64,000 nt of DNA from assembly GCA_900759015.1 (NCBI GenBank), contig CAAEUE010000014.1, positions 22,904-86,903 on the forward strand, in the 5' to 3' direction. The notes below the pieces were generated by a model. That model searched no databases and was not told where the DNA came from. It saw nothing but the letters and a program-made list of their open reading frames with translations. Source of the DNA: Clostridia bacterium. GTDB taxonomy: Bacteria; Bacillota; Clostridia; TANB77; CAG-508. The position numbers were made by a program, and so were the translations under genes. The first letter of the stretch is position 1. The number at the start of each line of letters is the position of its first letter. Below, piece after piece: positions 4,575 through 62,095 of this stretch.

Positions 4575-4800
4575 CAAACAAAAATCGTCCTTATATAAAA
4601 ATATAAGGACGAATATAATCCGCGGTGCCACCTTAAGTTATTATAAAAATAATACACTCAATTAGTAGGGTAACCGCCTAACTTACGGTTTAGTTTTCAC
4701 TAAAAACATCTAAGAGTAGATTCGCATATAAATTTTATTTACTTACACCACCCGTAAACTCTCTTAAAAAATTAAATATGTTACTATTCTCTTATCAAAC
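4575..4800 (-). promoter_or_regulatory. T-box leader (probable Ser specifier) controlling the DUF1653-serS operon
   Basis: On the minus strand there is an AGAGAG stem I motif, a candidate specifier AAUCUAC (UCU=Ser), the T-box core AACUUAAGGUGGCACCGCGG (plus strand 4621-4640) and then a terminator hairpin CGUCCUUAUAU/AUAUAAGGACG with a U-run (4578-4612). Confidence 0.75.
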
Positions 4801-4884
4801 GTTTATATTAATATGTAACACATTTTAACATAATATGTATGAATATTCAATAAAAATTGTAAAAAATTATTATATGAATTTGAT

Positions 4885-5340: not shown

Positions 5341-5916
5341 ATGTTCAACAAAATCGACAAGATGTCACGCAAAGATTTGGAGGAAGCAATACGTGAGTAT
5401 AAGGATTTCTCCAAGTATAGTCGGAAAGATCTGGAGAAGGAATTAAGAGTTCTTCTTCCAGATATTAATTTGAACGAATTTTCTGACCAGGAGTTGGAAG
5501 ATTTGCTAAGAAGCAATTATACATTCGAGGACTATAGCACCGAAGAGCTTCGGGAAGAAGCAAGGAGACATGAACGCTTCGAAGAGTGGACCAGAGAGGA
5601 GCTCGAAGAAGATTATGAACAGTTAGAGCAGCCACAATCAAAGGTTGAACGATATAAGACTATAAGATGGATTCTTATAGCAGTGCTCTGTGCTTTTTTA
5701 GGATACTACTATGGAAGCATGAATACAAAGCTTGAATATCTCGAACAGAGGACCGAGCAACTGCAGCAGGAGCTTACTGTGATGGAACAGGAAAATAATC
5801 TGTTAGAAGACAGAGTTGATACTCTGTCAGATATTATAGATTTGATAATAATCTATGTAACGTCTGACGAGCTTCCGGGAGCAGAAAATCCGGGTACATC
5901 AGCACAAATCATCTAA
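5341..5916 (+). CDS. hypothetical acidic coiled-coil protein with one TM helix, 191 aa, on the higher-GC islet
   Basis: RBS GGAGG 6 nt upstream. Glu/Arg-rich N-terminal half, a TM segment IRWILIAVLCAFLGYYYG and a C-terminal leucine-heptad region. Confidence 0.55.
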   Translation: MFNKIDKMSRKDLEEAIREYKDFSKYSRKDLEKELRVLLPDINLNEFSDQELEDLLRSNYTFEDYSTEELREEARRHERFEEWTREELEEDYEQLEQPQSKVERYKTIRWILIAVLCAFLGYYYGSMNTKLEYLEQRTEQLQQELTVMEQENNLLEDRVDTLSDIIDLIIIYVTSDELPGAENPGTSAQII

Positions 5917-6064: not shown

Positions 6065-6706
6065 GTGAAAAAAGATAAAAGTGATTTAAATAAAAGAGAG
6101 GTAGCAATCTTAAACTTTATATCAAAACAAATAAAAGCAAACCAATATCCACCATCAGTAAGAGAAATTTGTAAAGCTGTAGGACTAAATTCAACAGCAA
6201 CAGTACATGGATATTTAGAGAAATTAGAGCAAAAAGGTTATATAAGAAAAGAATCTCAAAAAGGAAGAGCATTAAGAGTTGTTAATGAAGATGATGTTAT
6301 AAGAAAACCAAAAGATTTATATTCTGGTAAAGAATTAGTAGATGTACCAGTTGTAGGAAAAATAACTGCAGGTGCACCAATTTTAGCAGTAGAAAATATA
6401 ACAGATACTTTCCCAATTCCTTTAGACTTCGTAGGAAATTCAGAAAGCTTTATGCTAACTGTTAGAGGAGAAAGTATGATAGAAGCAGGTATTTTAGATG
6501 GTGACTATATATTAGTAAAACAACAAAATACTGCAGAAAATGGTGAAATTGTTGTAGCTTTAATAGATGACGAAGCAACAGTAAAAACATTCTATAAAGA
6601 AAAAGATTATATAAGATTACAACCAGAGAATCATACAATGGCTCCAATAATTGTTCCAGATTGTAAAATACTTGGTAAAGTAGCCGGCGTATTTAGAAAA
6701 ATGTAG
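6065..6706 (+). CDS. lexA: LexA repressor
   Basis: Winged-helix N-terminus, S24 peptidase C-terminus with Ala-Gly cleavage site (GKITAGAP), Ser (RGESM) and Lys ([12 protein letters not shown]). GTG start sits 9 nt after GGAGG. The ORF-track ATG at 6026 precedes the promoter -10. Confidence 0.9.
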
Positions 6707-6920: not shown

Positions 6921-7060
6921 TATAATAGGAATTAAATGTGGTTTTATTAGTAGAAAGGAATTTAAATTTCATTTCTGCAATTTAATAAATCCACATTTTT
7001 TACTTGAAAGACAACCTAAAAAATGATAAAATGAAAACGTTAGAAAAGGAGGAAGTAAGT

Positions 7061-9124: not shown

Positions 9125-10843
9125 TTATGCTCCTTTGCTTACGCTGTTTTGAAGTTCATATATTTTTTTATATAATTTAGAATTGTTTAATAACTCGGTA
9201 TGTGTACCAATATTTTCAATTTTTCCATTATTAAAAACTAAAATTCTAGAACAGTTTTTGATTGTAGATGTTTTTTGTGAGGCTATAAATGTTGTAATAT
9301 TATGTTCTTTAGAATACTTAAAAATATTTTGTAATACTTGTGATTCTGTATATAAATCTAATGCACTTGTAACATCATCAAAAATTAATACTTTAGGATT
9401 ACCAATAAAGCCTCTTGCAATATTTATACGTTGCTTTTGACCACCGGATAAATTAGATGCATTATTTTGTAAAACAAAGTTTAAGGTGTTTTCTTTTTGA
9501 TTAACAAATTCACTTGCATTAGAAAGCTCCAGACTTTTTTGTATTTCTTCTTTAGAAGTAACTCTACCTAAAGCAATGTTTTCAAAAATTGTAGCTGTAA
9601 TAAAATCTGGCTTTTGACCAATATATGTTATGTTAGATTTTAAAAAGTTTGAATCATATTTTCTTATATCTTCACCATATAATTTTAAGCTACCAGAAGA
9701 AATATTTAAAGAATTATTTAGTAGTCTTAAAAAAGTACTTTTCCCTGAACCTGTAAGACCGATAATACCAATAGTTTCGCCAGGTTTTATTTTTAATGAT
9801 ATATCTCTTAAATTGTTAGTAGTAAAATATGAAAAATTTACATTAGATATATCAAAAATATAGTTGTTAGGTTTAAATTCTTTAATGTTACCAGTTTGTT
9901 TATTCTCTTTTAGGTTAAATAATTCTATTATACGTTTTGAAGAAGCGAAAGCTTTTGTGTAAATTGCAACTAAGTTTGAAAGTACAACAACAGCTAATAG
10001 CATCTCAGAAATGTAATTTATTATTGCAATAATTTCACCTTTAGATAAATTTTCAAATCCAAACTCGACATTGCTTATATTCAAAACTATTAGTGTAGTA
10101 AAGTTTAAAATAAATATAGAAACAGGATTTAGTAAAAAAGATAAAATAGTTGCAAGTTTATTATAGATATATGTTAGATTATTTACTTTATCAAATTTTG
10201 TTTTTTCTGTATTTTGTGTTACAAAACTACGAATTAATTTAATATTAGTTAAGTTTTCTTTTATTCTTAAGGTTAGCTTGTCTAACTGTAAATTAGCTTT
10301 TTGATAAATTTTACTCGCAGATTTTGCAATTATCAAAATTACTAGAAATAGTATAATACTTGCTACAAGAACATTTATTGCAATTTGTATGTTTATTAAT
10401 GAAATCATAATAATTGAGCCAATAAAAATAAATGGAACTCTTATTACTAATCTTATAAACATAGCAATTCCTGTTTCTAAATTAGTAACATCATTAATAA
10501 TTCGATTTACTATGGCAGAACTACCAATGCTATTTAATTTATTAGAAGGAACTTTTTGAATATGAGCAAATAATTTTTCGCGTAAAGTTTTGCTATATCC
10601 TTGCGAAGTAATTGCAGCTATGTATTGCGCACTACAAGCGAAAATAAGTCCTAATAATACAAGTATAATTAATCCAATAGAGTAATATATAAGCTCTGTA
10701 GAAGAAAATCTATTATAATTATCAATAAAAAAGGCAATAATGATTGGCAATAGTACTTCTATTATTGCTTCTAATAATTTTAATATTGGTCCAACTATTA
10801 AATTTACTTTATATTTTTTTAAATATTTTAATAATGTCTTCAT
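9125..10843 (-). CDS. ABC transporter, fused permease/ATP-binding subunit; partner of the previous gene (heterodimeric exporter)
   Basis: TM domain followed by Walker A GLTGSGKST, signature LSGGQKQR and Walker B LIFDDVTSALD. Only 3 nt from the downstream gene. Confidence 0.85.
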   Translation of the reverse strand: MKTLLKYLKKYKVNLIVGPILKLLEAIIEVLLPIIIAFFIDNYNRFSSTELIYYSIGLIILVLLGLIFACSAQYIAAITSQGYSKTLREKLFAHIQKVPSNKLNSIGSSAIVNRIINDVTNLETGIAMFIRLVIRVPFIFIGSIIMISLINIQIAINVLVASIILFLVILIIAKSASKIYQKANLQLDKLTLRIKENLTNIKLIRSFVTQNTEKTKFDKVNNLTYIYNKLATILSFLLNPVSIFILNFTTLIVLNISNVEFGFENLSKGEIIAIINYISEMLLAVVVLSNLVAIYTKAFASSKRIIELFNLKENKQTGNIKEFKPNNYIFDISNVNFSYFTTNNLRDISLKIKPGETIGIIGLTGSGKSTFLRLLNNSLNISSGSLKLYGEDIRKYDSNFLKSNITYIGQKPDFITATIFENIALGRVTSKEEIQKSLELSNASEFVNQKENTLNFVLQNNASNLSGGQKQRINIARGFIGNPKVLIFDDVTSALDLYTESQVLQNIFKYSKEHNITTFIASQKTSTIKNCSRILVFNNGKIENIGTHTELLNNSKLYKKIYELQNSVSKGA

Positions 10844-16523: not shown

Positions 16524-16585
16524 TTAAAAACAAAAATATAACTTTGGTTTTAATATTAGAGGTCAAAGCAAAAGGAAGTGAAAAA

Positions 16586-17035
16586 ATGAGAATATCAGAT
16601 TTAATAGAAGATTTTATAAAAGATATGTTAAAAACAGAAGATGAATTAGAAATACAAAGAAATGAACTTGCGGAACATTTTAATTGTGTGCCTTCACAAA
16701 TAAATTACGTAATATCCACACGATTTAAACCATCACAAGGTTATTATGTAGAAAGTAGAAGAGGAGGTGGCGGTCACATAACAATTAAAAAGATACATGT
16801 AACACAAAGTAATTATCTAATGCATATAATAACAAGCATTGGAGATACATTAACATCAAAAGAAGTAGATATTTTCATAAGTAACTTATTATCAGACGAA
16901 ATTGTGACTAAAAAAGAAGCTAAACTTTTAAAAGTAGCGACAAGTGATAATGTACTTAATGTACCTATCGATATAAAAGATAATTTACGAGCAAGAATAT
17001 TTAAGAACATGTTAATAAATTTAGTAGAAGATTAA
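16586..17035 (+). CDS. ctsR: transcriptional repressor CtsR
   Basis: MRISDLIEDFIKDML...ESRRGGGGHI glycine loop. RBS GGAAGTG before the ATG at 16586. Confidence 0.9.
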   Translation: MRISDLIEDFIKDMLKTEDELEIQRNELAEHFNCVPSQINYVISTRFKPSQGYYVESRRGGGGHITIKKIHVTQSNYLMHIITSIGDTLTSKEVDIFISNLLSDEIVTKKEAKLLKVATSDNVLNVPIDIKDNLRARIFKNMLINLVED

Positions 17036-17097
17036 TTGGCAGACGTAATTAGTCACCAACTAAAATTAGAGATTTTAAATTTAAGGAGGTTTTTATT

Positions 17098-17670
17098 ATG
17101 AAATGTCAAAATTGTGGTAGAAAAGAAGCAAATGTAAAATATACACAAATTATTAATGGTGTAAAAAAAGAAATGAATTTATGCGAGGATTGTGCAAGAG
17201 AATTAGGAATAGGAAGAGAACTTAATTTTAATATGTCTATGAATTTGCCAAGCTTTTTAGGAGGATTCTTTGATGAATACAATATGGATTCTTTTATTCC
17301 AACAATCGGAGCTTTAAGAGAAGAAGGATGCAATACTTGTGGTACAACATATAATGAATTTGCAAATACAGGATTATTTGGTTGCATGGATTGCTATGAT
17401 ATATTTGCTGATAGATTAGATCCAATATTAAGAAATATACAAGGCTCTAACAGACATGTTGGCAGAAAAGCAAAAAGTTTGGATAAATCTATCGTAAAAA
17501 ATATGGAAGCTAAAAAGAAAGAGTTAGAAAAGGATAAAGAATCAAAGAAAGAAAATAAGAAGACTAAAGAATCATTAGAAGAAGAATTAAAACAAGCTAT
17601 TAAAGAAGAAAGATATGAAGATGCAGCCAAAATAAGAGATGAAATTAAAAAAATGAATGGTGATAAATAA
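17098..17670 (+). CDS. mcsA: McsA (zinc-finger activator of McsB) with UVR motif
   Basis: CxxC x4 N-terminal zinc fingers and a C-terminal UVR-like LKQAIKEERYEDAAKIRDEI. Confidence 0.85.
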   Translation: MKCQNCGRKEANVKYTQIINGVKKEMNLCEDCARELGIGRELNFNMSMNLPSFLGGFFDEYNMDSFIPTIGALREEGCNTCGTTYNEFANTGLFGCMDCYDIFADRLDPILRNIQGSNRHVGRKAKSLDKSIVKNMEAKKKELEKDKESKKENKKTKESLEEELKQAIKEERYEDAAKIRDEIKKMNGDK

Positions 17671-17705
17671 TAAAATCAGTAATTAATTCTTTAGGAGGGA
17701 AAAAT

Positions 17706-18722
17706 ATGCTAAATTGGTATTTACAAAGTGGAAAAGATTCAGATGTAATAATAAGTTCTAGAATAAGATTAGCAAGAAATATATCAAATTATCCATTTGA
17801 AACAAAATGTAATGGAGCAAAAAAAGAAGAAATAACTAAATTAATAGAAGAAGCAGTAGCTGGTAACAAATATGGAATTAAGCTTTTAAGGTTAAAAGAC
17901 ATGGATGATGTTACCATTAATAGTTTGATAGAAAAAAGGTTAATAAGTCCAGACTTTGTAAAAGGCAAAGATGCTGCAAAAGCTATACTAATAAATGATG
18001 ATGAAAATGTATGTGCAATGATACATACAGATGATCACATTAGTTTACAAGTATTTGGAGCAGGTCTAGAGTTAGACAATTTATTAAATCTAATTATTGA
18101 GTTAGATGAATATTTAGATGAAAAGTTAAAATTTGCATTTAACGAAAAATATGGATTTTTAACAGCATGCCCATTAGAGGCAGGAACAGCGATGAAGGCA
18201 TCTGTAATGGTACATTTACCAGCATTGCAAATTACAGGTAATATGGGAAAAGTTTTAGAAATAATAAATAATTTTGGTATGAATGTAACAGGAATTCATG
18301 GGGAAGGTAGCAAATCCGAAGGCGCATTATATCAAATATCTAATAAACAAACTCTAGGAATTTCTGAAAAAGAAATTATAAAGAAATTAAAATTAATAAC
18401 AGATAAAATAATAGAGCAAGAGAGAATTGCAAGAAAATACTTAGGAAAAAATAGGTTAAATTTAGAAGACAGATTATATAGAGATTATGGTATTTTAACA
18501 AACTGCAGAAAAATTTCAGAAAGTGAATGTAAGGATTTATTATCAACATTAAAATTAGGAACAGATTTAGGAATTGTTAATGAACTAACAGACTTAAAAA
18601 TAAATAAATTATTATTATATACACAAGACGCAAACTTACAAAAATATTTAGGAACAAAATTAGAGGGAATAGATTTAGATGCTAAAAGAGCAGAAATTAT
18701 TAAAACAATTATAAAAGAGTAA
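17706..18722 (+). CDS. mcsB: protein-arginine kinase McsB
   Basis: Phosphagen-kinase fold motifs (SSRIRLARN, CPLEAGTAM). Position between mcsA and clpC. Confidence 0.9.
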   Translation: MLNWYLQSGKDSDVIISSRIRLARNISNYPFETKCNGAKKEEITKLIEEAVAGNKYGIKLLRLKDMDDVTINSLIEKRLISPDFVKGKDAAKAILINDDENVCAMIHTDDHISLQVFGAGLELDNLLNLIIELDEYLDEKLKFAFNEKYGFLTACPLEAGTAMKASVMVHLPALQITGNMGKVLEIINNFGMNVTGIHGEGSKSEGALYQISNKQTLGISEKEIIKKLKLITDKIIEQERIARKYLGKNRLNLEDRLYRDYGILTNCRKISESECKDLLSTLKLGTDLGIVNELTDLKINKLLLYTQDANLQKYLGTKLEGIDLDAKRAEIIKTIIKE

Positions 18723-18736
18723 GGAGGTAGATATTT

Positions 18737-21190
18737 ATGACATATAAATTTACAAATAGTGCTCAAAATGTTTTAGAGATTGCAAAAGAAATTGCAATAG
18801 AATTAGGACATAATTATATAGGAACAGAACATATATTGTATGGTTTAACAGAAGAGGAAAATGGTGTTGCAAGTAAAGTTTTAGAAAACCAAAATATAAA
18901 TTCTGAAAACGTATTAGAAGAAATAGAAAATTTAATAGGTAGAGATGAAGGAAGAACTATAACAAGTTTAGGTTTTACGCCAAGAACTAAAAGAGTGTTA
19001 GAAAATGCATTTTTAGAGGCAAGAAAACTAGACTCAGATTATATAGGAACAGAACATATTTTAATAGGAATAATGAGAGAAGCAGATAGTATTGCTGTGA
19101 GAATCTTATTAGATTTAGGAATTAATCCACAAAAATTATATAATGAAATAGTAAAAGTATTAGAAGAAGATGAAGATATAAACAGCAGTGATGGTTCTCA
19201 AAGTAGAAAAACAGGAAGTTTTAATTCTACACCAACATTAAATCAATATGGAACAGATCTAACTAAAAGTGCAAGTCTAGGAAAATTAGATCCTGTAATT
19301 GGAAGAAAGAATGAAATAGAAAGAGTTATCCAAATTCTTTCTAGAAGAACAAAAAATAATCCTTGTTTAATTGGTGAACCAGGTGTTGGTAAAACAGCTG
19401 TAGTAGAAGGATTAGCAGAAAAAATTGTTCAAGGCGATGTTCCAGAAATTTTAAAGGATAAAAGAGTTGTAACAATCGATTTGTCTAGTATGATTGCTGG
19501 TGCAAAATATAGAGGAGACTTCGAAGAAAGAATAAAGAAAGCTTTAAATGAAGTAAAAAAAGCCGGAGATGTAATTCTATTTATAGATGAGATTCATACA
19601 ATAGTAGGTGCAGGTTCAGCAGAAGGTGCTATAGATGCGGCAAATATTCTAAAACCTTTATTAGCAAGAGGTGAAATTCAATTAATTGGTGCTACAACTT
19701 TAAATGAATATAGAAAATATATAGAAAAAGACAGTGCTTTGGAAAGAAGATTTAGTCCTGTAACTGTTAATGAACCAACTCATGAAGAAACTGTAGAAAT
19801 CTTAAAGGGTATAAGAGATAAATACGAAGCTCATCATAATATAAAAATTACAGATGAAGCTATAAATGCAGCAGTAGAATTATCTAGCAGATATATTAAT
19901 GATAGATTTTTACCAGATAAAGCAATAGACTTAATAGATGAAGCTTCTTCAAAAATTAGATTATCTTCTTTAGAAGAGCCAGATAGTCTAAAAGAGATGG
20001 AAGAAAAAATAGAAAAGATGAATCAAGAAAAAGAAGCTGCTGTAAAAGTACAAAAATTTGAGAAGGCTGCTAAAATAAGAGATGAAGTAAATAAATTAAA
20101 AGAAGAGTTAGAAACAGAGAAAAATAAATGGAAAAGTAAAAAGACAAAAGCAATTCCAAAATTAACAGAAGAGGATATTGCTAAGACAATTGCAAGTTGG
20201 ACAGGAATTCCAGCAGCTAAAATAACTCAAGATGAAAATAAGAAATTAAAGAATTTAGATAAAGAATTGCATAAAAGAGTAATTGGTCAAAACGAAGCAG
20301 TAGAGGCAGTTGCAAAAGCGATAAGAAGAAGCAGAGTAGGACTTAAAAATCCTAATAGACCAATAGGTTCATTCTTATTCTTAGGACCAACAGGTGTTGG
20401 TAAAACAGAATTATCTAAAGCATTGGCAGAAAGCTTATTTGGTACAGAAGATGCCATGATAAGAATTGATATGTCAGAATTTATGGAACCACATTCTGTT
20501 GCTAAATTAATTGGTGCACCTCCAGGATATGTTGGCTTTGATGATGGTGGTCAATTAACAGAAAAAATAAGAAGAAAACCATATTCTGTAATATTGTTTG
20601 ATGAAATAGAAAAAGCACATCCAGATGTTATGAATATGTTATTACAAATTCTAGAAGATGGTAGATTAACAGACAGCCAAGGTAGAACAGTTAACTTTAA
20701 GAATACAGTAATAATTATGACATCAAATATTGGTGCAAGATTAATTACAGAGAAAAAATCTCTAGGATTTACAAATTCATCAGAAGAGGATGAAAATAAG
20801 GAATATGAAGAAATCAAGAAAAACGTAATGGCAGAATTAAAGAAACAATTAAGACCAGAATTTATAAATCGTATTGATGATATTATAGTATTCCATAAAT
20901 TAAATGATGATGAAATTAACAGTATTATAGACTTATTATTAAAGAATGTAGAACAAAGATTAGTAGAACAAGGTTTAAATATTAAAATTGATAAAACTGT
21001 TAAAGAGTTAATTGCAAAGAAAGGTGTAGATAAAGAATTCGGTGCTAGACCACTTCGTAGAGCAATACAAAATATTGTAGAAGACAAATTAGCAGAAGAA
21101 ATATTAGATGGAAATATTAAACCTGGGCTAGAGGCAAAATTAGTAGCAAAAGACGATAAAGTAGAGTTAAAAGTAAAAGCTACAAAATAA
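18737..21190 (+). CDS. clpC: ATP-dependent Clp protease ATP-binding subunit ClpC
   Basis: Two Clp N-repeats, AAA+ module 1 (GEPGVGKT), UVR linker, AAA+ module 2 (GPTGVGKT) and the ClpP-interaction region. Confidence 0.95.
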
Positions 21191-21195
21191 TAAAA

Positions 21196-21318
21196 TAGGG
21201 ATTTTAGGGCGTCCTGAGAAAAAAGAAATTTCGGGATTTGGGAACGTTCCTCAAATCCCTTTTTTGGGGCGCATCAAAAAAATATGAGGACGTTCTTCAA
21301 ATCCAGATTTTTTGAATG
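21196..21318. repeat. cluster of GGGACG-loop palindromic repeats (3-4 units)
   Basis: tagggattttagggcgtcctg, cgggatttgggaacgttcctcaaatccc, ggggcgcatc...gaggacgttcttcaaatcc. Confidence 0.7.
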
Positions 21319-21377
21319 TATAAAGTGGAATTAAATTAATACATTAGGTATACATAAGTTTGCAAAGAAAAATAAAA

Positions 21378-21410
21378 TATGCTAAAATTTATCTGTAGCA
21401 AAGTTGAAGT
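21378..21410 (+). promoter_or_regulatory. promoter of the 21456 gene (TTGCAA-17-TAAAAT with TGC extension)
   Basis: ttgcaaagaaaaataaaatatgctaaaat. Near-identical architecture upstream of the 22822 gene. Confidence 0.45.
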
Positions 21411-21455
21411 TAGTGTAAGACTCATCAAATGTAATGAGCATCAGAAAGGAACAGT

Positions 21456-21971
21456 ATGGAGAAAAAAGGAGAATTAAAAAATTGCAAAATATTCAACAAG
21501 AAAGGACGGGTTTTAGGTAGGCTACAAACTGAAGAAATAATGCCTATTATAGTTGTAGGCAAGAATGAGTCGGAAGATATAATTTATAGGGAAGGATTAT
21601 ATTTTCCAAAAACTAGAATCTTTCAAACACGATTTTCAGATGAAGACGAGTTCTTAAAAGAAGAGTATACAATCTCATCATTAGCTAAAATTGAACCATT
21701 AAATTTTGGTATTACGAGTCTGAAAAAATTTACTTTTTATTCTGCAGTTGGTGAAGAAATTGAAGAAGCATTTGTTGATTGGGCAAGACTAGTTTACTAT
21801 GTAATGAAGCATCCAGAAGAAAAAGAAAAGATTATTAGAATAGCTGGAGTATTATTAGAACCATGTTCACCAATTTTTAAAATCCATGTGAAGCTGGAAA
21901 ATGTAAAAGACAAAGGTTTTATATATCGAGAGCATGAATTTTATGAATTATCATCAAAGTATGATGAGTAA
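21456..21971 (+). CDS. hypothetical protein, 171 aa; N-terminal LKNCKIF..GR motif shared with the 22822 gene; higher-GC islet
   Basis: ORF with elevated GC and its own promoter. Paralogous N-terminal ~50 aa block. Confidence 0.55.
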   Translation: MEKKGELKNCKIFNKKGRVLGRLQTEEIMPIIVVGKNESEDIIYREGLYFPKTRIFQTRFSDEDEFLKEEYTISSLAKIEPLNFGITSLKKFTFYSAVGEEIEEAFVDWARLVYYVMKHPEEKEKIIRIAGVLLEPCSPIFKIHVKLENVKDKGFIYREHEFYELSSKYDE

Positions 21972-22009
21972 TAGTAACGTAAAAACCAATTTTAAATTGT
22001 GGAGGTATT

Positions 22010-22597
22010 ATGAGGCTATTTATTAATAAAGGAATATGCAAGCGGAAATGGAATGGTAATGTAAGTGTTCGTCAAAAAGATGGAATAGTTACATTACGTA
22101 TTCCAGATTATAACAAAGAGACCAACAGAGAACCATATGTGGAATTTGTAATTCCAAATGTAAAAAGAAAAATGCTAAAAACAAATCGATGGATTTATAA
22201 TTTGGTCTTGAAAGAAATTACAGAAAACCGTATAGTTTTTGAGGAGGAATATGATCCATGTACTGGTGAGATTTATGCCATTGTAAGGTCAACAGAAGCT
22301 GTACCGGATGATGTTTTTATTCCAAAAGCCAAAAAGAATAAGGTAAAGGTAATAAGGCGACTTCGATTTGTAGATGGAGAATGTGACCTTGGTGACTTTT
22401 TGTCCAATGTTTATTTTATAAGAATAAAATTGGACAGAAAAGAGAAGTTACCATTATACTTAACTTATGAGGATTCAAAGAACCTTCGGAAAGCAATAGT
22501 ATTTGCAAGAAATGCAGAAGGAATGTGGAATGCCAATATAGAGCTAAAAAAAGTCAGCAATACAGAAGGCAAATATATATCGCTTTCTAAAATTTAA
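22010..22597 (+). CDS. hypothetical basic protein, 195 aa, higher-GC islet
   Basis: RBS GGAGG 7 nt upstream. No recognisable motif. Confidence 0.55.
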   Translation: MRLFINKGICKRKWNGNVSVRQKDGIVTLRIPDYNKETNREPYVEFVIPNVKRKMLKTNRWIYNLVLKEITENRIVFEEEYDPCTGEIYAIVRSTEAVPDDVFIPKAKKNKVKVIRRLRFVDGECDLGDFLSNVYFIRIKLDRKEKLPLYLTYEDSKNLRKAIVFARNAEGMWNANIELKKVSNTEGKYISLSKI

Positions 22598-22739
22598 TAT
22601 TGTTTCAAAAAGAGTAGGAGGACATTTTTATTATGATGTTCTTCTATTCTTTTTAGTTGAAATAAAGCATAAAATATATTTAATTAATATGATATTACAA
22701 TTCATGAATTATTCAATATTTGAAATTAAAGTAAATATG

Positions 22740-22770
22740 TGCTAAAATTGTACTGCAAAAAATGTACAAA
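22740..22770 (+). promoter_or_regulatory. promoter of the 22822 gene (TTGAAA-17-TAAAAT with TGTGC extension)
   Basis: ttgaaattaaagtaaatatgtgctaaaat. Confidence 0.45.
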
Positions 22771-22821
22771 GAAGATGTAAACTTGCTAAATGTAGCGAGG
22801 AACTAAGAAAGGAGAAACAAC

Positions 22822-23271
22822 ATGAGAAAACTTAAAAATTGTAAGATTTTTGATCTGTATGGACGGAGGATGCAAGAGGAGGAAAATCCACATTTTGTAG
22901 TAGTTGTTGCAGATGTGGAAGATGACAAGACAATATGTGAGTATGGAATTCTGAATAAGGACAAGTTTGAGCAATCTGATGAGGTAGTATATGACATTGA
23001 ATCTTTTGCAGAAATGCCGGCGACGGATTCAACCATAAAAGAAAGGGGTTGTATTTTTTGTGCAGCAATGCCAAAGAGTTCAAAAACTACTATTCCGACA
23101 TGGCCTATGTTTGTGAAATATAAATCAGATAGCACAAATGTAGATGACGAAGAGGTTTCAATTGTCTGCGTATCCGAAGAGAGGGTTCAAGTGTTGAAAA
23201 CAAAACTTTCGGAGACCAACGATGCTGGCTTTAAAGTTGGAGACAGTTTCTACAGAGTTGGTGTAATGTAA
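22822..23271 (+). CDS. hypothetical protein, 149 aa, paralogous N-terminus (MRKLKNCKIFDLYGRR), higher-GC islet
   Basis: RBS AAAGGAG. N-terminal block aligns with the 21456 product. Confidence 0.55.
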   Translation: MRKLKNCKIFDLYGRRMQEEENPHFVVVVADVEDDKTICEYGILNKDKFEQSDEVVYDIESFAEMPATDSTIKERGCIFCAAMPKSSKTTIPTWPMFVKYKSDSTNVDDEEVSIVCVSEERVQVLKTKLSETNDAGFKVGDSFYRVGVM

Positions 23272-23310
23272 GCAAAATTTAAAATCTGAGATTTTTTTGC
23301 AGTAATAAAA

Positions 23311-23352
23311 AAACAGCCCGCGCTTTTATCACAAAGCACGAGCTGTTTTTTA
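23311..23352. terminator. bidirectional terminator (islet / dapB)
   Basis: cagcccgcgc...gcacgagctg stem with T-run. Unusually GC-rich. Confidence 0.6.
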
Positions 23353-24102
23353 TTTATTATTAATTAAATCATTCATATTATACATTCCATTATCTTTATT
23401 AACTATGTATTTAGCAGCCATAACAGCACCATTTGCAAAAACAGTTCTAGAATAACATTTATGTGTTATTTCTAAAGTCTCATGTTCACCAAAGAATTGT
23501 ACTGTATGTTCACCTACGATATTTCCACCTCTAATAGAAGAAAATCCGATTTCTAATTTATTTCTTTTTTCATGTTTATTGTGTCTGTCAAATTCATAAA
23601 CCATCTTGTTATCTTTAGCTTCATTAATGCTATCTGCTAAGAATAAAGCTGTTCCACTTGGGCTATCTATTTTTCTATTATGATGAGTTTCTATAATTTC
23701 TATATCAGTATCTGGCAATTCTTTAGCTAAAGATGCTACAATTTTTGCCATTAAATTTATATCATATGACATATTAGCAGATTTAAAAACAGGAATATCT
23801 TTTGAATAATTTTCTATTTCATTTAATTGTTCTTCTGTAAATCCAGTTGTTGCAATAACTATAGGAACATGATTTTCCTTAGCATATTTTAGGATATTTA
23901 AAGTAGCAACTGGAACAGAAAAATCAATTATAACATCTGGCTTTTCTTCTATGTCTGAAGTATTTGTATAAACTGGATATGTATAAATTCCAGTATTTTC
24001 TTTATCAACACCACCAAGAAGTAAAATATCTTTATCATTATCTATTACATTTGCAACTTCTTGTCCCATTTTACCATTTATTCCATTTATTAATACTTTC
24101 AT
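23350..24102 (-). CDS. dapB: 4-hydroxy-tetrahydrodipicolinate reductase
   Basis: N-terminal Rossmann GxxGxMG and the EIIETHHNRKIDSPSGTA motif. Confidence 0.9.
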   Translation of the reverse strand: MKVLINGINGKMGQEVANVIDNDKDILLLGGVDKENTGIYTYPVYTNTSDIEEKPDVIIDFSVPVATLNILKYAKENHVPIVIATTGFTEEQLNEIENYSKDIPVFKSANMSYDINLMAKIVASLAKELPDTDIEIIETHHNRKIDSPSGTALFLADSINEAKDNKMVYEFDRHNKHEKRNKLEIGFSSIRGGNIVGEHTVQFFGEHETLEITHKCYSRTVFANGAVMAAKYIVNKDNGMYNMNDLINNK

Positions 24103-30383: not shown

Positions 30384-30424
30384 AGATGCACATAAAAAAA
30401 GACAAAATAAGGACAACACAGTTA

Positions 30425-30640
30425 TAAATTAGTCTTTAAGAGAGCTAGATGTATGCTGAAATTCTAGTAAGATAAAATATAATTGTTATCACCTTATATG
30501 TTGCGAAACTGAACTAATAGTAAGTTTTGACGTATATTCTGCGTTAAAGAAATTAGAGAGAATAACGTAAGTTATTAAATTAGGTGGTACCGCGGAATTA
30601 TGCCCTTTTCGTCCTAAACAGGATGAAAAGGGCTTTTTGA
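30425..30640 (+). promoter_or_regulatory. T-box leader (Ile specifier candidate AUU/AUC) of ileS
   Basis: AAGAGAG stem I, a GAAAUUCUAG loop and the T-box core AAAUUAGGUGGUACCGCGG (30577-30595). The terminator is GCCCUUUUCGUCC...GGAUGAAAAGGGC then UUUUU (30602-30638). Confidence 0.8.
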
Positions 30641-30707: not shown

Positions 30708-33700
30708 GTGTACAAAAAAGTAGAACTTAAAGACGGTTTTGTAGGCATGGAAAATGATGTAGCAAAACTATGGAAAGAAAAAGACATTGTTAAGAAAAAC
30801 TTTGCAATGAACGAAGGAAAAAGATACTTCACATTTTATGATGGACCTCCAACAGCAAATGGAAGACCACATGTTGGACATATCGAAACAAGGGTAATGA
30901 AAGACATTATACCAAGATACAAAGTAATGAAAGGTTACAAAGTATTAAGAAAAGCTGGTTGGGATACACATGGACTTCCAGTTGAACTAGAAATAGAAAA
31001 AGAATTAGGAATTTCAGGAAAACAACAAATAGAAGAATATGGTGTAGAAAAATTCGTAAAGAAATGTAAAGAAAGTGTTTTCACATATGTTCATCTATGG
31101 GAAGAAATGACAAACAAAGTAGGATTCTGGGTAGATATGGAAAAACCATATGTAACATATCATAATGAATATATAGAATCTGTATGGTGGGCACTTAAAG
31201 AAATGTGGAAAAAGGGATTACTATATGAAGGTCATAAAGTAATGCCATATTGCCCAAGATGTGGAACAGCACTTTCATCACATGAAGTTGCTCAAGGGTA
31301 TAAAGATGTAAAAGATTTAACTTGTATAGCTAAATTTAAAGTAAAAGGTGAAGAAAATAAATATATTTTAGCTTGGACAACAACACCTTGGACATTACCA
31401 TCAAACTTAGCATTATGTGTTAATAAAGCATACACATATGCAGATGTAAAAGTAAATGTTGGAACTGAGGAAGAACCAAAATATGAAGTATATGTTTTAG
31501 CTAAAGATTTGGTAGAAACAGTATTAAAAGACAAAGAATATGAAGTCTTAAAAGAATATAAAGGAACAGAATTATTAGGAACAAAATATGAACAACTAAT
31601 GCCATTTGCAAAAGTAGATGGAAAAGCATTCGAAGTAATCCATGGGGACTATGTAACATTAACAGATGGTACAGGAATAGTACACATTGCACCAGCATAT
31701 GGTGAAGATGATAGTTTAGTTGCAAAACAAAATGGAATAACTTTTGTAAATTTAGTAGATAAAGAAGGAAAATTTGTTCCAGAAGTAGAACCTTGGGCAG
31801 GCAAATTCGTAAGAGATTGTAATGAAGGTATCTGTAAATGGTTAGAAGAAGAAAATAAATTGTTCAGTAAAGAAAAACATCTACACTCTTATCCACATTG
31901 CTGGAGATGTGACACACCACTTTTATATTATCCAAAAGAAAGTTGGTTTGTTGCAATGAGCAAACTAAGAGACAATTTATTAAAAAATAATGACACAATA
32001 AATTGGATGCCAGAAACAATTAAAACAGGAAGATTTGGAAAATTCTTAGAGAATGTTATAGATTGGGGAATCTCAAGAGATAGATATTGGGGAACTCCAC
32101 TTCCAATTTGGACTTGTGAATGTGGTCACCAAGAATGTATTGGAAGTATAGCAGAATTAAAAGAAAAAGGAATAAATGTACCAGACGATATAGAACTTCA
32201 TAAACCATATATTGATGATGTACATCTAAAATGTCCACATTGTGGTAAAGAAATGACAAGAGCAAAAGAAGTTATAGATTGTTGGTTCGATTCTGGTTCA
32301 ATGCCTTTTGCACAATGGCATTATCCATTCGAAAACAAAGAAATATTCGAAGCAAACTTCCCAGCTCAGTTTATTTCAGAAGCTATAGACCAAACAAGAG
32401 GATGGTTCTATACACTACTTGCAGTTTCTACATGTTTATTTGATAGATCATCATATGAAAACTGTATAGTATTAGGACATGTTCTAGATGACAAAGGACA
32501 AAAAATGTCTAAATCTAAAAAGAATGGTGTAGATCCATTTGAATTACTAGATACAGTTGGAGCAGATGCTACTAGATGGCATTTCTATACATGTAGCGCA
32601 CCATGGATTCCAACAAGATTATCTGTAAAAAGTGTACAAGAAACACAAAGAAAATTCTTAAGTACATTATGGAATGTATATTCATTCTATGTTCTATATG
32701 CAGAAATAGATGGGTTTAATCCATTAAACTACAAAGATTTTAAAGTAACAAATGTAATGGATAAATGGATACTTTCTAAAATGTATACATTAATAAAAGA
32801 AGTAGATGCAAAATTAGATAAATATGACATAACAGGAGCTGCTTTATTAATAGAAGACTTTACAGATGAACTTTCTAATTGGTATGTTCGTAGAAACAGA
32901 GAAAGATTCTGGGCAAGTGGAATGGAAGATGACAAAGTTGGAGCATATGTAACTTTATATACAGTATTAGTTAATTTAGTAAAAGTTGCAGCACCTTTTG
33001 TACCATTTATAACAGACGAAATTTACCAAAATTTAGTTGTTAATTTAAATAAAGAAGCACCAGAAAGTGTACATCTATGCTTATGGCCAGAAGTAAATGA
33101 AGCTGAAATAGATAAAGATTTAGAAAAAGAAATGGATTTAGCATACAAGATTGTTAAATTAGGTAGAAGTGCAAGAAATGCAGCTAATATCAAAAATAGA
33201 CAACCACTTTCAGAAATGCTAATTTCTGTAGGAACACTTCCAGAATATTATGGAGACATCGTAAAAGATGAACTAAATGTAAAAGAAGTAGTTCTAGGTG
33301 CAGATATGTCTAAATACGTTGACTTCGAAATAAAACCAAATCTACCAGTTTTAGGAAAAGAATATGGAAAATTAATACCAAAAATTAGAGAAGCAATCTC
33401 TAAACTAAATCAAATGGATTTAGCAAATAAAGTAAAAAACGGTGGAGTAGAATATATCGAAGTAGAAGACGAACAAATACCATTAGACGAATCTAATTTA
33501 TTAGTAACAATGCAAGGTAAAGAAGGATATGCCTTTGCAGGTGAAGGTGAACTTGGAGTTGTATTAGAAACAACAATAACACTAGAACTAAAAGAAGAAG
33601 GATATTTAAGAGAAATTTTATCTAAAGTACAAAACATGAGAAAAGATAGAGACTTCGAAGTATTAGATAGAATAAATTTATACTTTGCCAATAATGATAC

Positions 33701-33848
33701 ATTAAAAGAAGTTATAGAAAAATATAAAGAACAAATAATGAAAGACACTTTAGCAGACAATATCTTCTACAATGAAAAAAGAGACAACTATGTAGAAACA
33801 AAAATAAACGATGAAAAAATAGATATAGATGTTGAAGTAGTAAAATAA
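30708..33848 (+). CDS. ileS: isoleucyl-tRNA synthetase (long form, 1046 aa)
   Basis: HVGH (HIGH) motif, KMSKS, CP1 editing domain and a C-terminal Zn-binding cluster. Confidence 0.95.
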
Positions 33849-35668: not shown

Positions 35669-36031
35669 ATGAGAAAAACGGAAGTAACCAATCTAATGTT
35701 ACTCTCTTTAGACCTAAAGAGAGTAGATGAGTTTAAAGTTGCAGAAGAGGCAGAAAACTTGAAGAATGCGATAACTATTCAAGGAATAGAAAACACAATA
35801 GTTTACTTCTGCAGAAATTCCGAAGTGTCAGAATGCCTTGTTTCTGAACTTACAATGCTTGAAGTCTGTAGCATAATTATTCTATCTATAATGGGATATG
35901 ATTATGCTGGGTTATTAAAAATATTTGATATGCCAATTGACTTTAAGAAAGAATTGTCTAAACAGGGAAAGACTCAAATTCAAAGATGTAAAACTGTGAA
36001 ACAGTTCATTGAAGAATATATTAAAAAGTAA
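35669..36031 (+). CDS. hypothetical protein (120 aa) lying between the duplicated segments
   Basis: RBS AGAGGAAAAAAG. A terminator hairpin ccagctttattgctgg plus T-run follows (36064-36090). Confidence 0.5.
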   Translation: MRKTEVTNLMLLSLDLKRVDEFKVAEEAENLKNAITIQGIENTIVYFCRNSEVSECLVSELTMLEVCSIIILSIMGYDYAGLLKIFDMPIDFKKELSKQGKTQIQRCKTVKQFIEEYIKK

Positions 36032-48705: not shown

Positions 48706-48794
48706 GCAGATGTGGCGGAACTGGCAGACGCACAGGACTTAAAATCCTGCGAGGGTTAAACCTCGTGCCGGTTCGATTCCGGCCATCTGCACCA
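48706..48794 (+). tRNA. tRNA-Leu (anticodon UAA), type II with long variable arm, CCA encoded
   Basis: Acceptor gcagatg/catctgc, anticodon stem cagga/tcctg with loop cuUAAaa, variable hairpin cgagggttaaacctcg and T-arm ccggttcgattccgg. 89 nt. Confidence 0.9.
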
Positions 48795-52040: not shown

Positions 52041-52406
52041 ATGAGAGAAGTATTAGCAGAAGCAAATGTAGTAGAAACAATGCGGAAAGTGATTGTTGAA
52101 TGCATTCGGGACAACGAATGTGAGAACACGCAAATTTGGCTTAATGATGAAGTAGTAAAGAAACTTCAGGATGCCCAGATTTATGGAACGATTAATTATC
52201 CTTATGAAGGATATACTATGTTGGCTTTTGAACTCAGGACGGGAGAAAAAATGGAAATAACATACAACAGGGAAAAAAGTATTGCTCTAAAAAATTGGCA
52301 TAATGCATGGAGTAACCTGAATGTTATTAAATACGTATATTTTCCGGATTCCAAAGAATATTTCTTCTTTGGAGCTACAGAGGAGAAGATTTTAGTAATT
52401 AAATAA
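52041..52406 (+). CDS. hypothetical protein (121 aa) with locally elevated GC
   Basis: RBS AGGAGGAAG. GC clearly above flanks. Followed by a non-canonical hairpin catggctttcctac...gtaggggagccatg (52410-52455). Confidence 0.5.
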   Translation: MREVLAEANVVETMRKVIVECIRDNECENTQIWLNDEVVKKLQDAQIYGTINYPYEGYTMLAFELRTGEKMEITYNREKSIALKNWHNAWSNLNVIKYVYFPDSKEYFFFGATEEKILVIK

Positions 52407-61887: not shown

Positions 61888-62095
61888 AAATTGTCCTCCT
61901 TTCTTTAATTCAATAGTTTTTGGTCTATATATTATATCACATTTACATAAAAAAGTAAAAAATAAAAATTTAGCAATATTAAGTAATAACGAAAATATAC
62001 AAATATAATGTATATATTGTTCTAGACTATTATGTAAATTTGTGGTAAAATAGTTAAGATAACATGTAAACCAAGCTATAAAGAGAGGTAAGAGT

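What the first reader, a model, noticed from the sequence alone, without database searches (positions are those of the whole stretch)
21320..23352. Three-gene higher-GC islet after clpC with two paralogous genes driven by duplicated promoters
Directly after the repeat cluster that follows clpC, three ORFs (171, 195 and 149 aa) show elevated GC. The first and third share an N-terminal block (ELKNCKIFNKKGRVLGRL vs KLKNCKIFDLYGRRMQ, followed by a hydrophobic VV stretch and conserved acidic positions). Each is preceded by an almost identical promoter (TTGcAA or TTGaAA, then 17 nt, then TGCTAAAAT or TGTGCTAAAAT). The middle gene is basic and unrelated. None of the three matches a family I can name. 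The N-terminal block is vaguely PRC-barrel/YlmC-like (l.g..v.d..G..lG.v), but that is weak. The arrangement of duplicated sensor-like N-domains with divergent C-domains under duplicated promoters looks like a diversifying module, for example paralogous effectors, immunity or regulatory proteins. The islet ends in a GC-rich terminator shared with dapB.
Basis: seen in the sequence. Interest (0 to 1): 0.68.

Follow-up and report, generated by a model that had tools for sequence, protein, structure and literature searches.

The report
Shrunken paralog gene array after clpC
The three genes after clpC are real but of unknown function: they are what remains of a 7-8 gene array of fast-evolving paralogs, found only in a small group of uncultured gut Clostridia, that gains, loses and fuses genes by recombination between repeated promoter-leader modules.

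Summary
ORF1 (21456-21971), ORF2 (22010-22597) and ORF3 (22822-23271) are real genes: dN/dS is 0.1-0.5, ORF2's AF2 model is confident in all five runs and ORF3's in one of five, and all have strong ribosome-binding sites.

ORF1 and ORF3 are paralogs along their whole length (hhalign E 3e-14, 145 columns), not only in the N-terminal block. ORF2 belongs to an unrelated family. Neither family matches Pfam, NCBIfam, PHROGs, PDB sequences or PDB/BFVD folds.

What is duplicated is a ~110-nt module:
- a TATACATAA box (lost in the ORF3 copy);
- a -35 hexamer, 17-nt spacer and TG-extended -10;
- a leader hairpin whose stem covaries;
- a GAAAGGA ribosome-binding site.

In all relatives found, the clpC-dapB gap holds 1, 3 or 7-8 such genes, in a fixed order in the long arrays. 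Chimeric promoters, a chimeric gene and identical cassettes in diverged backgrounds show homologous recombination. The "islet" is therefore more likely a deletion remnant than a fresh insertion.

GC3 is raised (0.21/0.25/0.34 against about 0.12 in the flanks), and the same is true in every relative.

Function is unknown. The conserved residues are structural, so I infer non-enzymatic binding proteins, with low confidence. No toxin or phage link was found; one ORF2 relative lies on a mobilisable element.

The parts
21192..21311 (+). clpC terminator hairpin (21233-21259, followed by a T run) plus a degenerate second copy (21282-21311). In long-array relatives, a copy of this terminator-like hairpin lies just before the ORF1-type cassette. 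It is therefore a likely endpoint of the deletion that removed the first four array genes.
   Evidence: terminator scan; repeat D2, inverted repeat I5; -43.2 kcal/mol, z -4.2; copies before the ORF1-type cassettes in L001, L016, L021.
21349..21357 (+). TATACATAA box just upstream of the -35 hexamer of P1. It is conserved before most family-A cassettes in relatives and has degenerated in the ORF3 copy. Candidate UP element or regulator site; this is an inference.
21360..21388 (+). Promoter P1: TTGCAA, 17-nt spacer, TG-extended TAAAAT. It drives ORF1-ORF2.
   Evidence: Conserved in the orthologous cassettes of L001, L009, L016, L020 and L021.
21421..21438 (+). Leader hairpin 1, CTCATcAAATGTAATGAG, ending 5 nt before the ribosome-binding site GAAAGGA (21444-21450).
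   Evidence: (covariation). Thermodynamically weak (-3.5 kcal/mol).
21456..21971 (+). ORF1, 171 aa, family A (ORF1 type), pI 5.8.
22010..22597 (+). ORF2, 195 aa, family B, pI 9.6, all-beta. Its own ribosome-binding site GGAGG lies at 22001-22005, 38 nt after ORF1, so the two are co-transcribed.
   Evidence: (pLDDT 94 in all five models).
22609..22654 (+). Intrinsic terminator ending the ORF1-ORF2 unit.
   Evidence: -23.8 kcal/mol, z -6.1, followed by a U run.
22720..22748 (+). Promoter P2: TTGAAA, 17-nt spacer, TG-extended TAAAAT. It drives ORF3.
22782..22799 (+). Leader hairpin 2, CTTGCTAAATGTAGCGAG, ending 7 nt before the ribosome-binding site GAAAGGAG (22807-22814).
   Evidence: -7.9 kcal/mol.
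22822..23271 (+). ORF3, 149 aa, family A (ORF3 type), pI 4.8. This is the one array member present in every relative whose contig spans the whole clpC-dapB gap.
23303..23356 (.). Bidirectional terminator shared by ORF3 and dapB.
   Evidence: I1; -26.7 kcal/mol, z -6.0.

Best explanation
The region is a reduced version of a lineage-specific tandem array of paralogous genes. The array fills the clpC-dapB gap in a small group of uncultured, low-GC gut Clostridia (MAGs labelled Clostridium sp. CAG:354 and relatives; GTDB order TANB77).

Shown:
- There are two transcription units. P1 drives ORF1 and ORF2 and ends at a terminator; P2 drives ORF3 and ends at the terminator shared with dapB.
- Each unit is headed by a copy of a ~110-nt module: TATACATAA box, -35, 17-nt spacer, TG-extended -10, an otherwise unstructured leader with one small hairpin whose stem covaries, and a GAAAGGA ribosome-binding site.
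- ORF1 and ORF3 are full-length paralogs of family A. ORF2 belongs to the unrelated family B.
- Sister species carry 7-8 genes in a fixed order: small gene, four family-A genes (the last being the ORF1 type), the ORF2-type family-B gene, then two more family-A genes, the last being the ORF3 type.
- Close relatives carry 3 genes or only ORF3.
- Recombination leaves three kinds of trace. Some single-gene relatives have a promoter that is P1-like at its 5' end and P2-like at its 3' end. One relative has a gene fused from two neighbouring paralogs at the conserved WPE motif. Two genomes share an identical ORF1-ORF2 cassette although their clpC genes differ at dS 0.17.

Inferred mechanism of variation: unequal and inter-strain homologous recombination between the repeated promoter-leader modules, the terminator copies and the paralogs themselves. 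The highly conserved clpC and dapB flanks act as anchors.

Inferred protein function (about 0.25 confidence):
- The proteins are cytoplasmic; they have no signal peptide or membrane segment.
- They are beta-rich and non-enzymatic. The near-invariant residues are Gly, Pro and aromatics, with no conserved catalytic-type residues.
- I therefore read them as a repertoire of binding, inhibitor-like or immunity-like proteins expressed from strong sigma-A-type promoters.
- Family B is an independently mobile accessory gene that has joined the array.

The overall confidence given (0.6) applies to the structural and evolutionary account, not to the protein function.
For: Real genes:
- dN/dS is 0.11-0.48, against 0.02-0.10 for clpC and dapB.
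- AF2 gives pLDDT 94 for ORF2 (all five models) and 89.9 for ORF3 (best model).
- Both have strong ribosome-binding sites.

Paralogy: hhalign E 3.4e-14 over the full length; family alignments.

Rarity: 29 clusters for family A among 5.8 billion proteins; 49 representative clusters for family B.

Locus variation and fixed order.

Two clades by clpC 3' nucleotide identity to the window:
- 94-96% identity: arrays of 1 or 3 genes.
- 88-90% identity: arrays of 7-8 genes.

Module conservation.

Hairpin covariation:
- 92.8% of cells are paired, against 26-40% in the slid controls.
- 3 of 5 pairs show changes on both sides.
- 0 of 500 shuffles reach the observed score.

Recombination traces:
- Chimeric P1/P2 promoter in L003 and L010, with a different deletion architecture in L008.
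- Chimeric gene L021_A173: 84% identical to A160 in its N-terminal part and 85-94% identical to A171/A170 in its C-terminal part.
- Mosaic dS values: L009 vs L011 give dS 0 for ORF1 and 0.008 (one synonymous difference) for ORF2, with clpC at 0.17 and ORF3 at 0.46.

Terminators.

Family B elsewhere sits alone, at unrelated loci and on a mobilisable element.
Against: - Function is not established. There is no family, PDB-sequence or fold match.
- Only one of the five AF2 models of ORF3 was confident; the others scored 55-70.
- The direction of change (loss from a long ancestral array, or expansion in the sister clade) rests on parsimony and on the chimeric junctions, not on a rooted phylogeny.
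- The leader hairpin has only 5-7 bp, is thermodynamically weak (z near 0 for the ORF1 copy), and its covariation comes from related paralogous sequences.
- Raised GC3 in a long-resident array is not explained by this model.
- Promoter-like hexamers are not rarer than chance in this AT-rich DNA (15 found against 10.9 +/- 3.9 expected). The promoter calls therefore rest on conservation, not on the scan.
Confidence: 0.6

Rival explanations
1. The genes form an orphan immunity-protein array ('polyimmunity locus') against polymorphic toxins, or another inhibitor repertoire. Each paralog would neutralise a different incoming toxin or effector.
For: - Tandem divergent paralogs of small cytoplasmic proteins, each with its own promoter.
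- Copy-number variation, chimeras and cassette exchange.
- Evolution 5-10 times faster than the flanking genes.
- Conserved residues are structural, not catalytic.
- Family B behaves as accessory cargo, including on a mobilisable element.
Against: - No toxin, LXG/WXG/Rhs or secretion gene lies next to any copy in 30 loci.
- No match to any Pfam family, including Pfam's immunity families.
- Gene order is fixed across the long arrays, unlike typical immunity islands.
- Gene-wide dN/dS is below 0.5.
Confidence: 0.15
2. The region is a recently acquired foreign islet: a horizontal insertion from a higher-GC donor downstream of clpC.
For: - GC3 is raised (0.21-0.34 against about 0.12 in the flanks).
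- ORF1+ORF2 are absent from many close relatives.
- The ORF1-ORF2 cassette is identical in two genomes whose clpC genes differ.
- Family B occurs on a mobilisable element elsewhere.
Against: - The same locus carries the same families in the same order in species about 10-12% diverged in clpC nucleotides.
- Every relative whose contig spans the gap keeps at least ORF3.
- No integrase, transposase or tRNA lies in the clpC-dapB gap, and the only direct repeats there belong to the array itself (promoter-leader modules and terminator copies).
- There are no phage, plasmid or IMG/VR matches.
- The junction in the single-gene relatives is a P1/P2 chimera, the signature of deletion rather than of an empty site.
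Confidence: 0.12
3. ORF1 (acidic) and ORF2 (basic) form a two-gene toxin-antitoxin-like or defence pair, and ORF3 is a spare antitoxin paralog.
For: - Acidic/basic pair (pI 5.8 and 9.6), co-transcribed with a 38-nt gap.
- The ORF1 type always lies directly upstream of family B in the arrays.
- The pair is exchanged as a unit.
- Weak PADLOC hit of ORF2 to a Type I specificity subunit (E 0.0046, 14 bits).
Against: - Family B occurs alone, without family A, in all contexts outside this clade.
- In the long-array relatives L016, L020 and L021, about 110-150 nt separate the two genes, with a terminator-like hairpin in L016 and L021.
- No TA or defence family match reaches significance.
- Foldseek did not recover HsdS or any nuclease or toxin fold.
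Confidence: 0.1
4. These are conserved lineage-specific housekeeping, sporulation or ClpC-linked proteins (for example adaptors or substrates of the adjacent CtsR-McsAB-ClpC system).
For: - The position directly after the ctsR-mcsA-mcsB-clpC operon is constant in all relatives found.
- Selection is purifying.
- One family-B homologue lies beside spoIIID-yabG-veg-sipL.
Against: - The genes have their own sigma-A-type promoters after a strong clpC terminator.
- No CtsR operator or sporulation-sigma motif was recognised by eye; none was searched for formally.
- Gene content varies from 1 to 8 between close relatives, which is incompatible with an essential role.
- No hit to Pfam's MecA or any other adaptor family.
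- Family B sits at unrelated loci elsewhere.
Confidence: 0.08

Closest known systems
Polyimmunity loci: tandem arrays of immunity-protein paralogs of polymorphic toxin systems (Zhang, Aravind et al. 2012; cited from my own knowledge, not read here)
   Same: - Tandem, divergent, small cytoplasmic paralogs.
- Variable copy number between strains.
- Recombination and chimeras.
- Unrelated families interleaved in one array.
- Faster evolution than the flanking genes.
   Different: - No toxin or secretion gene nearby in any locus.
- No match to any Pfam family, including immunity families.
- Fixed gene order in the long arrays.
- No gene-wide positive selection.
Variable multigene families headed by repeated promoter/5' cassettes (for example the Mycoplasma vsa/vlp surface lipoprotein loci; from my own knowledge)
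   Same: A repeated promoter-leader-5' coding module precedes divergent gene bodies, and recombination between the repeats changes the repertoire.
   Different: - Those encode secreted lipoproteins and switch by site-specific inversion or slippage at simple repeats.
- Here the proteins are cytoplasmic.
- There is no recombinase or simple repeat, and every copy has a complete promoter.
   Same: A short N-terminal beta-strand region with a G..G-type pattern.
   Different: No Pfam hit even at E <= 1. The similarity between ORF1 and ORF3 covers the whole protein rather than one barrel domain.
Type II toxin-antitoxin pairs
   Same: Small acidic gene followed by a small basic gene in one operon, moved as a unit.
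   Different: - Family B is found alone elsewhere.
- No known TA family match.
- A terminator lies between the two genes in some relatives.
Type I R-M specificity subunit (HsdS) target-recognition domain (weak PADLOC hit of ORF2)
   Same: 14-bit match over residues 58-186 (E 0.0046).
   Different: - No Pfam or NCBIfam HsdS hit.
- Foldseek against the PDB did not recover HsdS structures.
- No hsdM or hsdR nearby.
- The model is all-beta, without the conserved helical spacer regions.

Membership tests
Family A (the uncharacterised ORF1/ORF3 family defined here) | Full-length homology: N-terminal L-x-N-[CV]-K-I-F-x(2,3)-G-R-R, central Y-x-I-x-S, W-P-x-[LI]-[VL], and C-terminal G-F-x(3,5)-F-[YF]-[RK]-[VI] | tested here: met
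   ORF1-type vs ORF3-type profiles: probability 98.2%, E 3.4e-14, 145 columns. Alignments A3 and A4. HMM scores 172.6 and 165.9 bits.
Family B (the uncharacterised ORF2 family defined here) | About 200 aa with M-x-L-F-I-N-x-G at the N-terminus, Y-A-L-x-R-S...P-D-D-V-x-I-P, V-I-R-R-I-R-F-x-D-x-E-x-D-x-G-x-F-L-S-N-V-Y, and Y-I-S-L-S-x-L at the C-terminus | tested here: met
   49 representative homologues at E <= 1e-3; alignment A5; HMM score 227 bits.
PRC-barrel / YlmC (PF05239) | Significant match to the PRC-barrel profile | tested here: not met
   hmmscan against Pfam-A at E <= 1 returned no PRC hit for ORF1 or ORF3.
Polymorphic-toxin immunity array | Membership in a known immunity family (Imm/SUKH/SMI1 and similar) | tested here: not met
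   No Pfam or NCBIfam hit.
Polymorphic-toxin immunity array | Linkage to a toxin gene or toxin-cassette remnants in at least some genomes | tested here: not met
   No large toxin or secretion gene adjacent in loci L001-L032. Only about 5-10 kb of flank was examined.
Polymorphic-toxin immunity array | Tandem paralogs with strain-to-strain variation in repertoire | tested here: met
   1, 3 or 7-8 genes at the same locus; chimeric gene; cassette exchange.
Polymorphic-toxin immunity array | Direct binding and neutralisation of a cognate toxin | not testable with these tools
   Needs experiments.
Horizontally acquired genomic island | Mobility genes, a tRNA or other known attachment site, or an empty site in relatives | tested here: not met
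   - No integrase or tRNA nearby.
- Every relative whose contig spans the gap keeps at least ORF3.
- The single-gene junction is a P1/P2 chimera.
Horizontally acquired genomic island | Atypical base composition | tested here: met
   GC3 is 0.21-0.34 against about 0.12 in the flanks, but the same holds across all relatives.
Type II toxin-antitoxin module (ORF1+ORF2) | Obligate co-occurrence of the two partners | tested here: not met
   Family B occurs without family A in L012, L023, L027-L030 and L032.
Known cis-regulatory RNA (Rfam) for the leader | Match to an Rfam covariance model | tested here: not met
   No leader hit at E <= 10 in 21100-23400; the only hits were terminator-like noise at 23270-23390. 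With gathering thresholds on the whole window, only T-boxes and a tRNA elsewhere.

The most novel reading that the evidence does not exclude
Families A and B are new folds that form a recombining repertoire of cytoplasmic binder or inhibitor proteins, for example against incoming toxins, phage proteins or mobile-element proteins. They would be co-regulated through a shared promoter box and a leader hairpin recognised by an unknown factor. That would make this a previously undescribed kind of variable protection locus in uncultured TANB77 gut bacteria.
Probability: 0.15. Interest if true: 0.65.

Novelty: new member of a known kind. Interest (0 to 1): 0.36.

Why it matters
The window shows, step by step, how a multigene array in a reduced-genome, uncultured gut bacterium is remodelled. 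Repeated promoter-leader modules and terminator copies act as recombination substrates. They delete, fuse and swap cassettes between two highly conserved housekeeping anchors.

It also defines two protein families with no Pfam or NCBIfam annotation. One has a confident AF2 model in all five runs; neither matches anything in the PDB or in viral structure sets. One of the two also rides on mobilisable elements.

If the proteins prove to be a protective or inhibitory repertoire, the locus would mark strain-level conflict in TANB77, a clade linked in the literature to host phenotypes. As it stands, this is a well-described locus of unknown function, not a new mechanism.

Tried and rejected
- Pfam, NCBIfam, PHROGs and PADLOC on the three proteins: nothing significant. 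The 14-bit PADLOC hit of ORF2 to HsdS was rejected for lack of any supporting sequence or fold match.
- Pfam on all 32 family-B members and on the other array genes of relatives: nothing.
- Profile searches of both families against PDB sequences: nothing.
- Foldseek of both AF2 models against the PDB, and of ORF2 against BFVD: best E 0.014-0.09, TM < 0.3.
- Family A against family B by hhalign: unrelated.
- Rfam on the region: no leader family.
- tblastn against phage and plasmid collections and IMG/VR scans: no matches.
- A search for further copies of the module or of either family in the other 62 kb of the window: none. There was one weak AAATGT hairpin before the ORF at 7004, judged to be chance.
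- Gene-wide positive selection: rejected (dN/dS < 0.5).
- Alignment-based genome and viral scans failed for lack of a conserved peptide stretch, so single proteins or narrower alignments were used instead.
Full report
**1. What is in the sequence**

The window has 27.6% GC. The ctsR, mcsA, mcsB and clpC genes (16544-21190, + strand) are followed by three + strand ORFs:
- ORF1, 21456-21971, 171 aa;
- ORF2, 22010-22597, 195 aa;
- ORF3, 22822-23271, 149 aa.

The convergent dapB gene follows at 23350-24102.

Whole-gene GC is 0.300, 0.323 and 0.380, against a mean of 0.277 +/- 0.041 for the 60 longest non-overlapping ORFs of the window. The contrast is clearer at third codon positions: GC3 is 0.205, 0.251 and 0.336, against 0.159 +/- 0.067 overall and 0.10-0.14 for clpC, mcsB and dapB. 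The GC claim therefore holds, strongly for ORF3 and only modestly for ORF1.

**2. Transcription signals**

Two sigma-70-type promoters with a TG-extended -10 and identical geometry are present:
- P1, TTGCAA-17-TAAAAT, at 21360-21388;
- P2, TTGAAA-17-TAAAAT, at 22720-22748.

The scan finds no more promoter-like sites than chance in this AT-rich DNA (15 against 10.9 +/- 3.9). The argument for these two rests on conservation, not on the scan. The same module heads the orthologous and paralogous cassettes in all related loci.

It contains:
- a TATACATAA box upstream of the -35 (21349-21357; degenerate in the ORF3 copy);
- the promoter itself;
- a leader that is otherwise unstructured (z +1.75 for the ORF1 copy);
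- one small hairpin with loop AAATGT(A), at 21421-21438 and 22782-22799;
- a GAAAGGA(G) ribosome-binding site;
- the first ~15 codons.

Across 18 distinct cassettes, the five-pair stem forms standard pairs in 92.8% of cells, against 26-40% when the partner column is slid. Three of the five pairs change on both sides (CUCAU/AUGAG, CUUGC/GCAAG and others). None of 500 shuffles reaches the observed covariation score. The hairpin is short and weak (-3.5 to -8 kcal/mol), and the sequences are related. I therefore treat it as a probable, not proven, RNA element. Rfam has no match for it.

Terminators:
- The clpC terminator lies at 21233-21259, with a degenerate second copy at 21282-21311.
- A strong terminator follows ORF2 (about 22609-22654; -23.8 kcal/mol, z -6.1).
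- A bidirectional terminator is shared by ORF3 and dapB (23303-23356; -26.7 kcal/mol, z -6.0).

ORF2 starts 38 nt after ORF1 and has its own GGAGG. The region therefore holds two transcription units: P1-ORF1-ORF2 and P2-ORF3.

**3. The proteins**

Pairwise BLASTP sees only the N-terminal block shared by ORF1 and ORF3 (13/21 identities, E 2e-4). Profiles built separately from ORF1-type and ORF3-type sequences align over 145 columns with 98.2% probability and E 3.4e-14.

The conserved positions run the whole length:
- L-x-N-C-K-I-F-x-x-G-R-R at the N-terminus;
- Y-x-I-x-S in the centre;
- W-P-x-L-V;
- G-F...F-Y-R-V at the C-terminus.

The two are therefore full-length paralogs (family A). They are not a shared N-domain joined to unrelated C-domains.

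ORF2 (family B) is unrelated to family A (hhalign probability 0.8%). It is basic (pI 9.6, against 5.8 and 4.8).

None of the three matches Pfam, NCBIfam, PHROGs or PADLOC at a meaningful level. In particular there is no PRC-barrel hit.

Structure predictions:
- ORF2: pLDDT 94 in all five models, all-beta.
- ORF3: pLDDT 89.9 in the best model but 55-70 in the other four; beta-rich with one helix.

The near-invariant residues of both families are Gly, Pro, Leu, Ser and aromatics; no acidic, His or Cys position is conserved across the families. There is no signal peptide or membrane segment. From this I infer cytoplasmic, non-enzymatic proteins.

**4. Distribution**

Family A is very rare. A single-sequence search with ORF1 found one cluster among 5.8 billion proteins. 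ORF3 found 12 clusters, and a family profile found 29. All come from gut metagenomes or MAGs.

The four GTDB genomes that carry ORF3 relatives are labelled uncultured Clostridium or Clostridia, including 'Clostridium sp. CAG:354'. GTDB genus CAG-354 is placed in order TANB77, family CAG-508 (bioRxiv 10.1101/2021.05.11.441322). Assigning the window itself to this group is an inference from 97.5-99% ClpC protein identity.

Family B is broader, with 49 representative clusters at 50% identity.

Neither family matches phage records, and ORF2 matches no plasmid record (family A was not searched against plasmids). IMG/VR scans with the ORF3-type and family-B alignments also found nothing.

**5. The locus in relatives**

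Every family-A gene recovered lies between clpC and dapB, or on a short contig showing the same array order.

| Relatives | clpC 3' nt identity to window | Content of the clpC-dapB gap |
|---|---|---|
| L003-L008, L010 | 94-96% | ORF3 only |
| L009, L011 | 94% | ORF1+ORF2+ORF3 (95% protein identity to the window) |
| L001, L016-L022 | 88-90% | 7-8 genes in a fixed order |

In the long arrays the order is:
- a 75-88 aa gene;
- four family-A genes (147-155, 160-162, 170-171, and the ORF1 type of 170-175 aa);
- the family-B gene (192-195 aa);
- two more family-A genes (166 aa, and the ORF3 type of 155 aa).

GC3 is raised in all of these arrays (0.15-0.39, against 0.07-0.17 in their flanks). The atypical composition is thus a stable property of the array, not a sign of recent arrival in this genome. 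I cannot explain it. GC-biased gene conversion at a recombination-prone locus, or repeated exchange with an unsampled donor, are untested possibilities.

**6. Rates and recombination**

| Gene | dN/dS (Nei-Gojobori) |
|---|---|
| ORF3 | 0.11-0.48 |
| ORF1 | 0.16-0.40 |
| ORF2 | 0.11-0.28 |
| clpC | 0.02-0.10 |
| dapB | 0.03-0.10 |

These are real genes under purifying selection that is 5-10 times weaker than on their neighbours. There is no gene-wide positive selection.

Divergence is large compared with the flanks. Against L001, ORF1, ORF2 and ORF3 are 49%, 75% and 43% identical, while the adjacent ClpC and DapB fragments are 96-97% identical.

The histories are mosaic:
- L009 and L011 have an identical ORF1 and an ORF2 with a single synonymous difference (dS 0 and 0.008), although their clpC genes differ at dS 0.17 and their ORF3 genes at dS 0.46.
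- L009 and L010 share a near-identical ORF3 (dS 0.07), with clpC at dS 0.29.

The junctions record the events:
- In L003 and L010, the single promoter matches the window's P1 context from the clpC terminator through the -35. From the leader hairpin onward it matches P2. This is what a deletion by crossover between the two modules would leave.
- L008 has a different, wholly P2-type architecture with other upstream sequence, which implies an independent event.
- In the long arrays, a copy of the clpC terminator-like hairpin lies before the ORF1-type cassette. This gives a plausible endpoint for the loss of the first four genes in the window's lineage.
- In L021, a 173-aa gene is 84% identical to paralog A160 in its N-terminal part and 85-94% identical to A171/A170 in its C-terminal part. 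The switch falls at the conserved WPE motif, and that array has one gene fewer.

**7. Family B elsewhere**

Outside this clade, family B occurs without family A, at unrelated places:
- next to pspA (L012);
- between an SPFH gene and spoIIID-yabG-veg-sipL (L032);
- directly after a Mob_Pre relaxase on an element that also carries a DnaD/HTH gene and a large serine recombinase (L029);
- beside a peptidoglycan-binding protein gene (L027, L028);
- as a tandem pair of 295/297-aa forms beside a sigma-70-family gene and a Phd/ParE pair (L023).

It behaves as a self-contained accessory gene.

**8. Interpretation**

The best-supported account is structural and evolutionary. The 'islet' is a deletion derivative of a lineage-specific paralog array. 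Its repeated promoter-leader modules, terminator copies and paralogous coding sequences act as substrates for unequal and inter-strain homologous recombination between two conserved anchors.

The protein function is unknown. My working guess, at about 0.25 confidence, is a repertoire of non-enzymatic binding or inhibitor-like proteins. It rests on conserved structural residues, the array architecture, the relaxed constraint and the accessory behaviour of family B.

The rival readings are a classical immunity array, a recent foreign insertion, an ORF1-ORF2 toxin-antitoxin-like pair, and ClpC-linked or sporulation housekeeping genes. Each fails at least one test, as listed in the rival and membership sections.

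**9. Verdict**

This is a new example of a known phenomenon: a variable tandem array of lineage-restricted genes. It involves two unannotated families with no detectable structural relatives. It has moderate interest for genome-dynamics work and as a source of candidate new folds. There is not yet evidence of a new mechanism.

Noticed in passing
window 60922-62142 (-) and 62478-63140 (+): A 406-aa protein has a RelA_SpoT nucleotidyltransferase domain (Pfam E 3e-12). A divergent 220-aa protein matches Pfam Tad4, 'Type I Thoeris inhibitor' (31.4 bits, above the cutoff of 25). Both have raised GC3 (0.34 and 0.27). This may be a second islet of atypical composition, related to defence or anti-defence.
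   Followed up: partly
window 52041-52406 (+), 35669-36031 (+), 57891-58661 (-), 5341-5916 (+): Further ORFs with raised GC3 (0.31, 0.29, 0.23, 0.42, against a gene mean of 0.16). The first three have no Pfam hit; the fourth was not searched and may not be a real gene.
   Followed up: partly
window 21192-21311: The 'repeat cluster' after clpC is the clpC terminator hairpin plus a degenerate second copy. Together they fold into a larger structure (-43.2 kcal/mol, z -4.2). Relatives carry another copy of the hairpin inside the long array, before the ORF1-type cassette.
   Followed up: yes
L001 190-250; L016 about 6340-6400; L020 and L021 equivalents: The first gene of the long arrays (75-88 aa, absent from the window) has a different promoter. 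It is overlapped by a near-perfect palindrome, CTTTACAAATTATGTAAAG, which looks like an operator for a dimeric regulator.
   Followed up: no
L029 3642-5621: A family-B (ORF2-type) gene lies directly downstream of a Mob_Pre relaxase, on an element that also carries a DnaD/HTH gene and a large serine recombinase. Family B can therefore travel as cargo of mobilisable elements.
   Followed up: partly
L023 1626-3422: Two tandem family-B paralogs carry an extra ~95-aa C-terminal extension (295 and 297 aa). They are divergent from a sigma-70 r2/r4 gene and lie next to a Phd/ParE pair.
   Followed up: no
L003/L010 about 9944-9955: In the single-gene relatives, the ORF3 homologue has a TTG start and a weakened ribosome-binding site (AATGAG instead of AAGGAG). 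Gene callers therefore report a truncated 133-aa product. This may reflect reduced expression or incipient decay.
   Followed up: partly
window 4602-4807 (-), 30396-30619 (+), 48706-48791 (+): Two T-box leaders (the second precedes the class-I aminoacyl-tRNA synthetase gene, PF00133, at 30708-33848) and one tRNA gene. These were the only Rfam gathering-level hits in the window.
   Followed up: no
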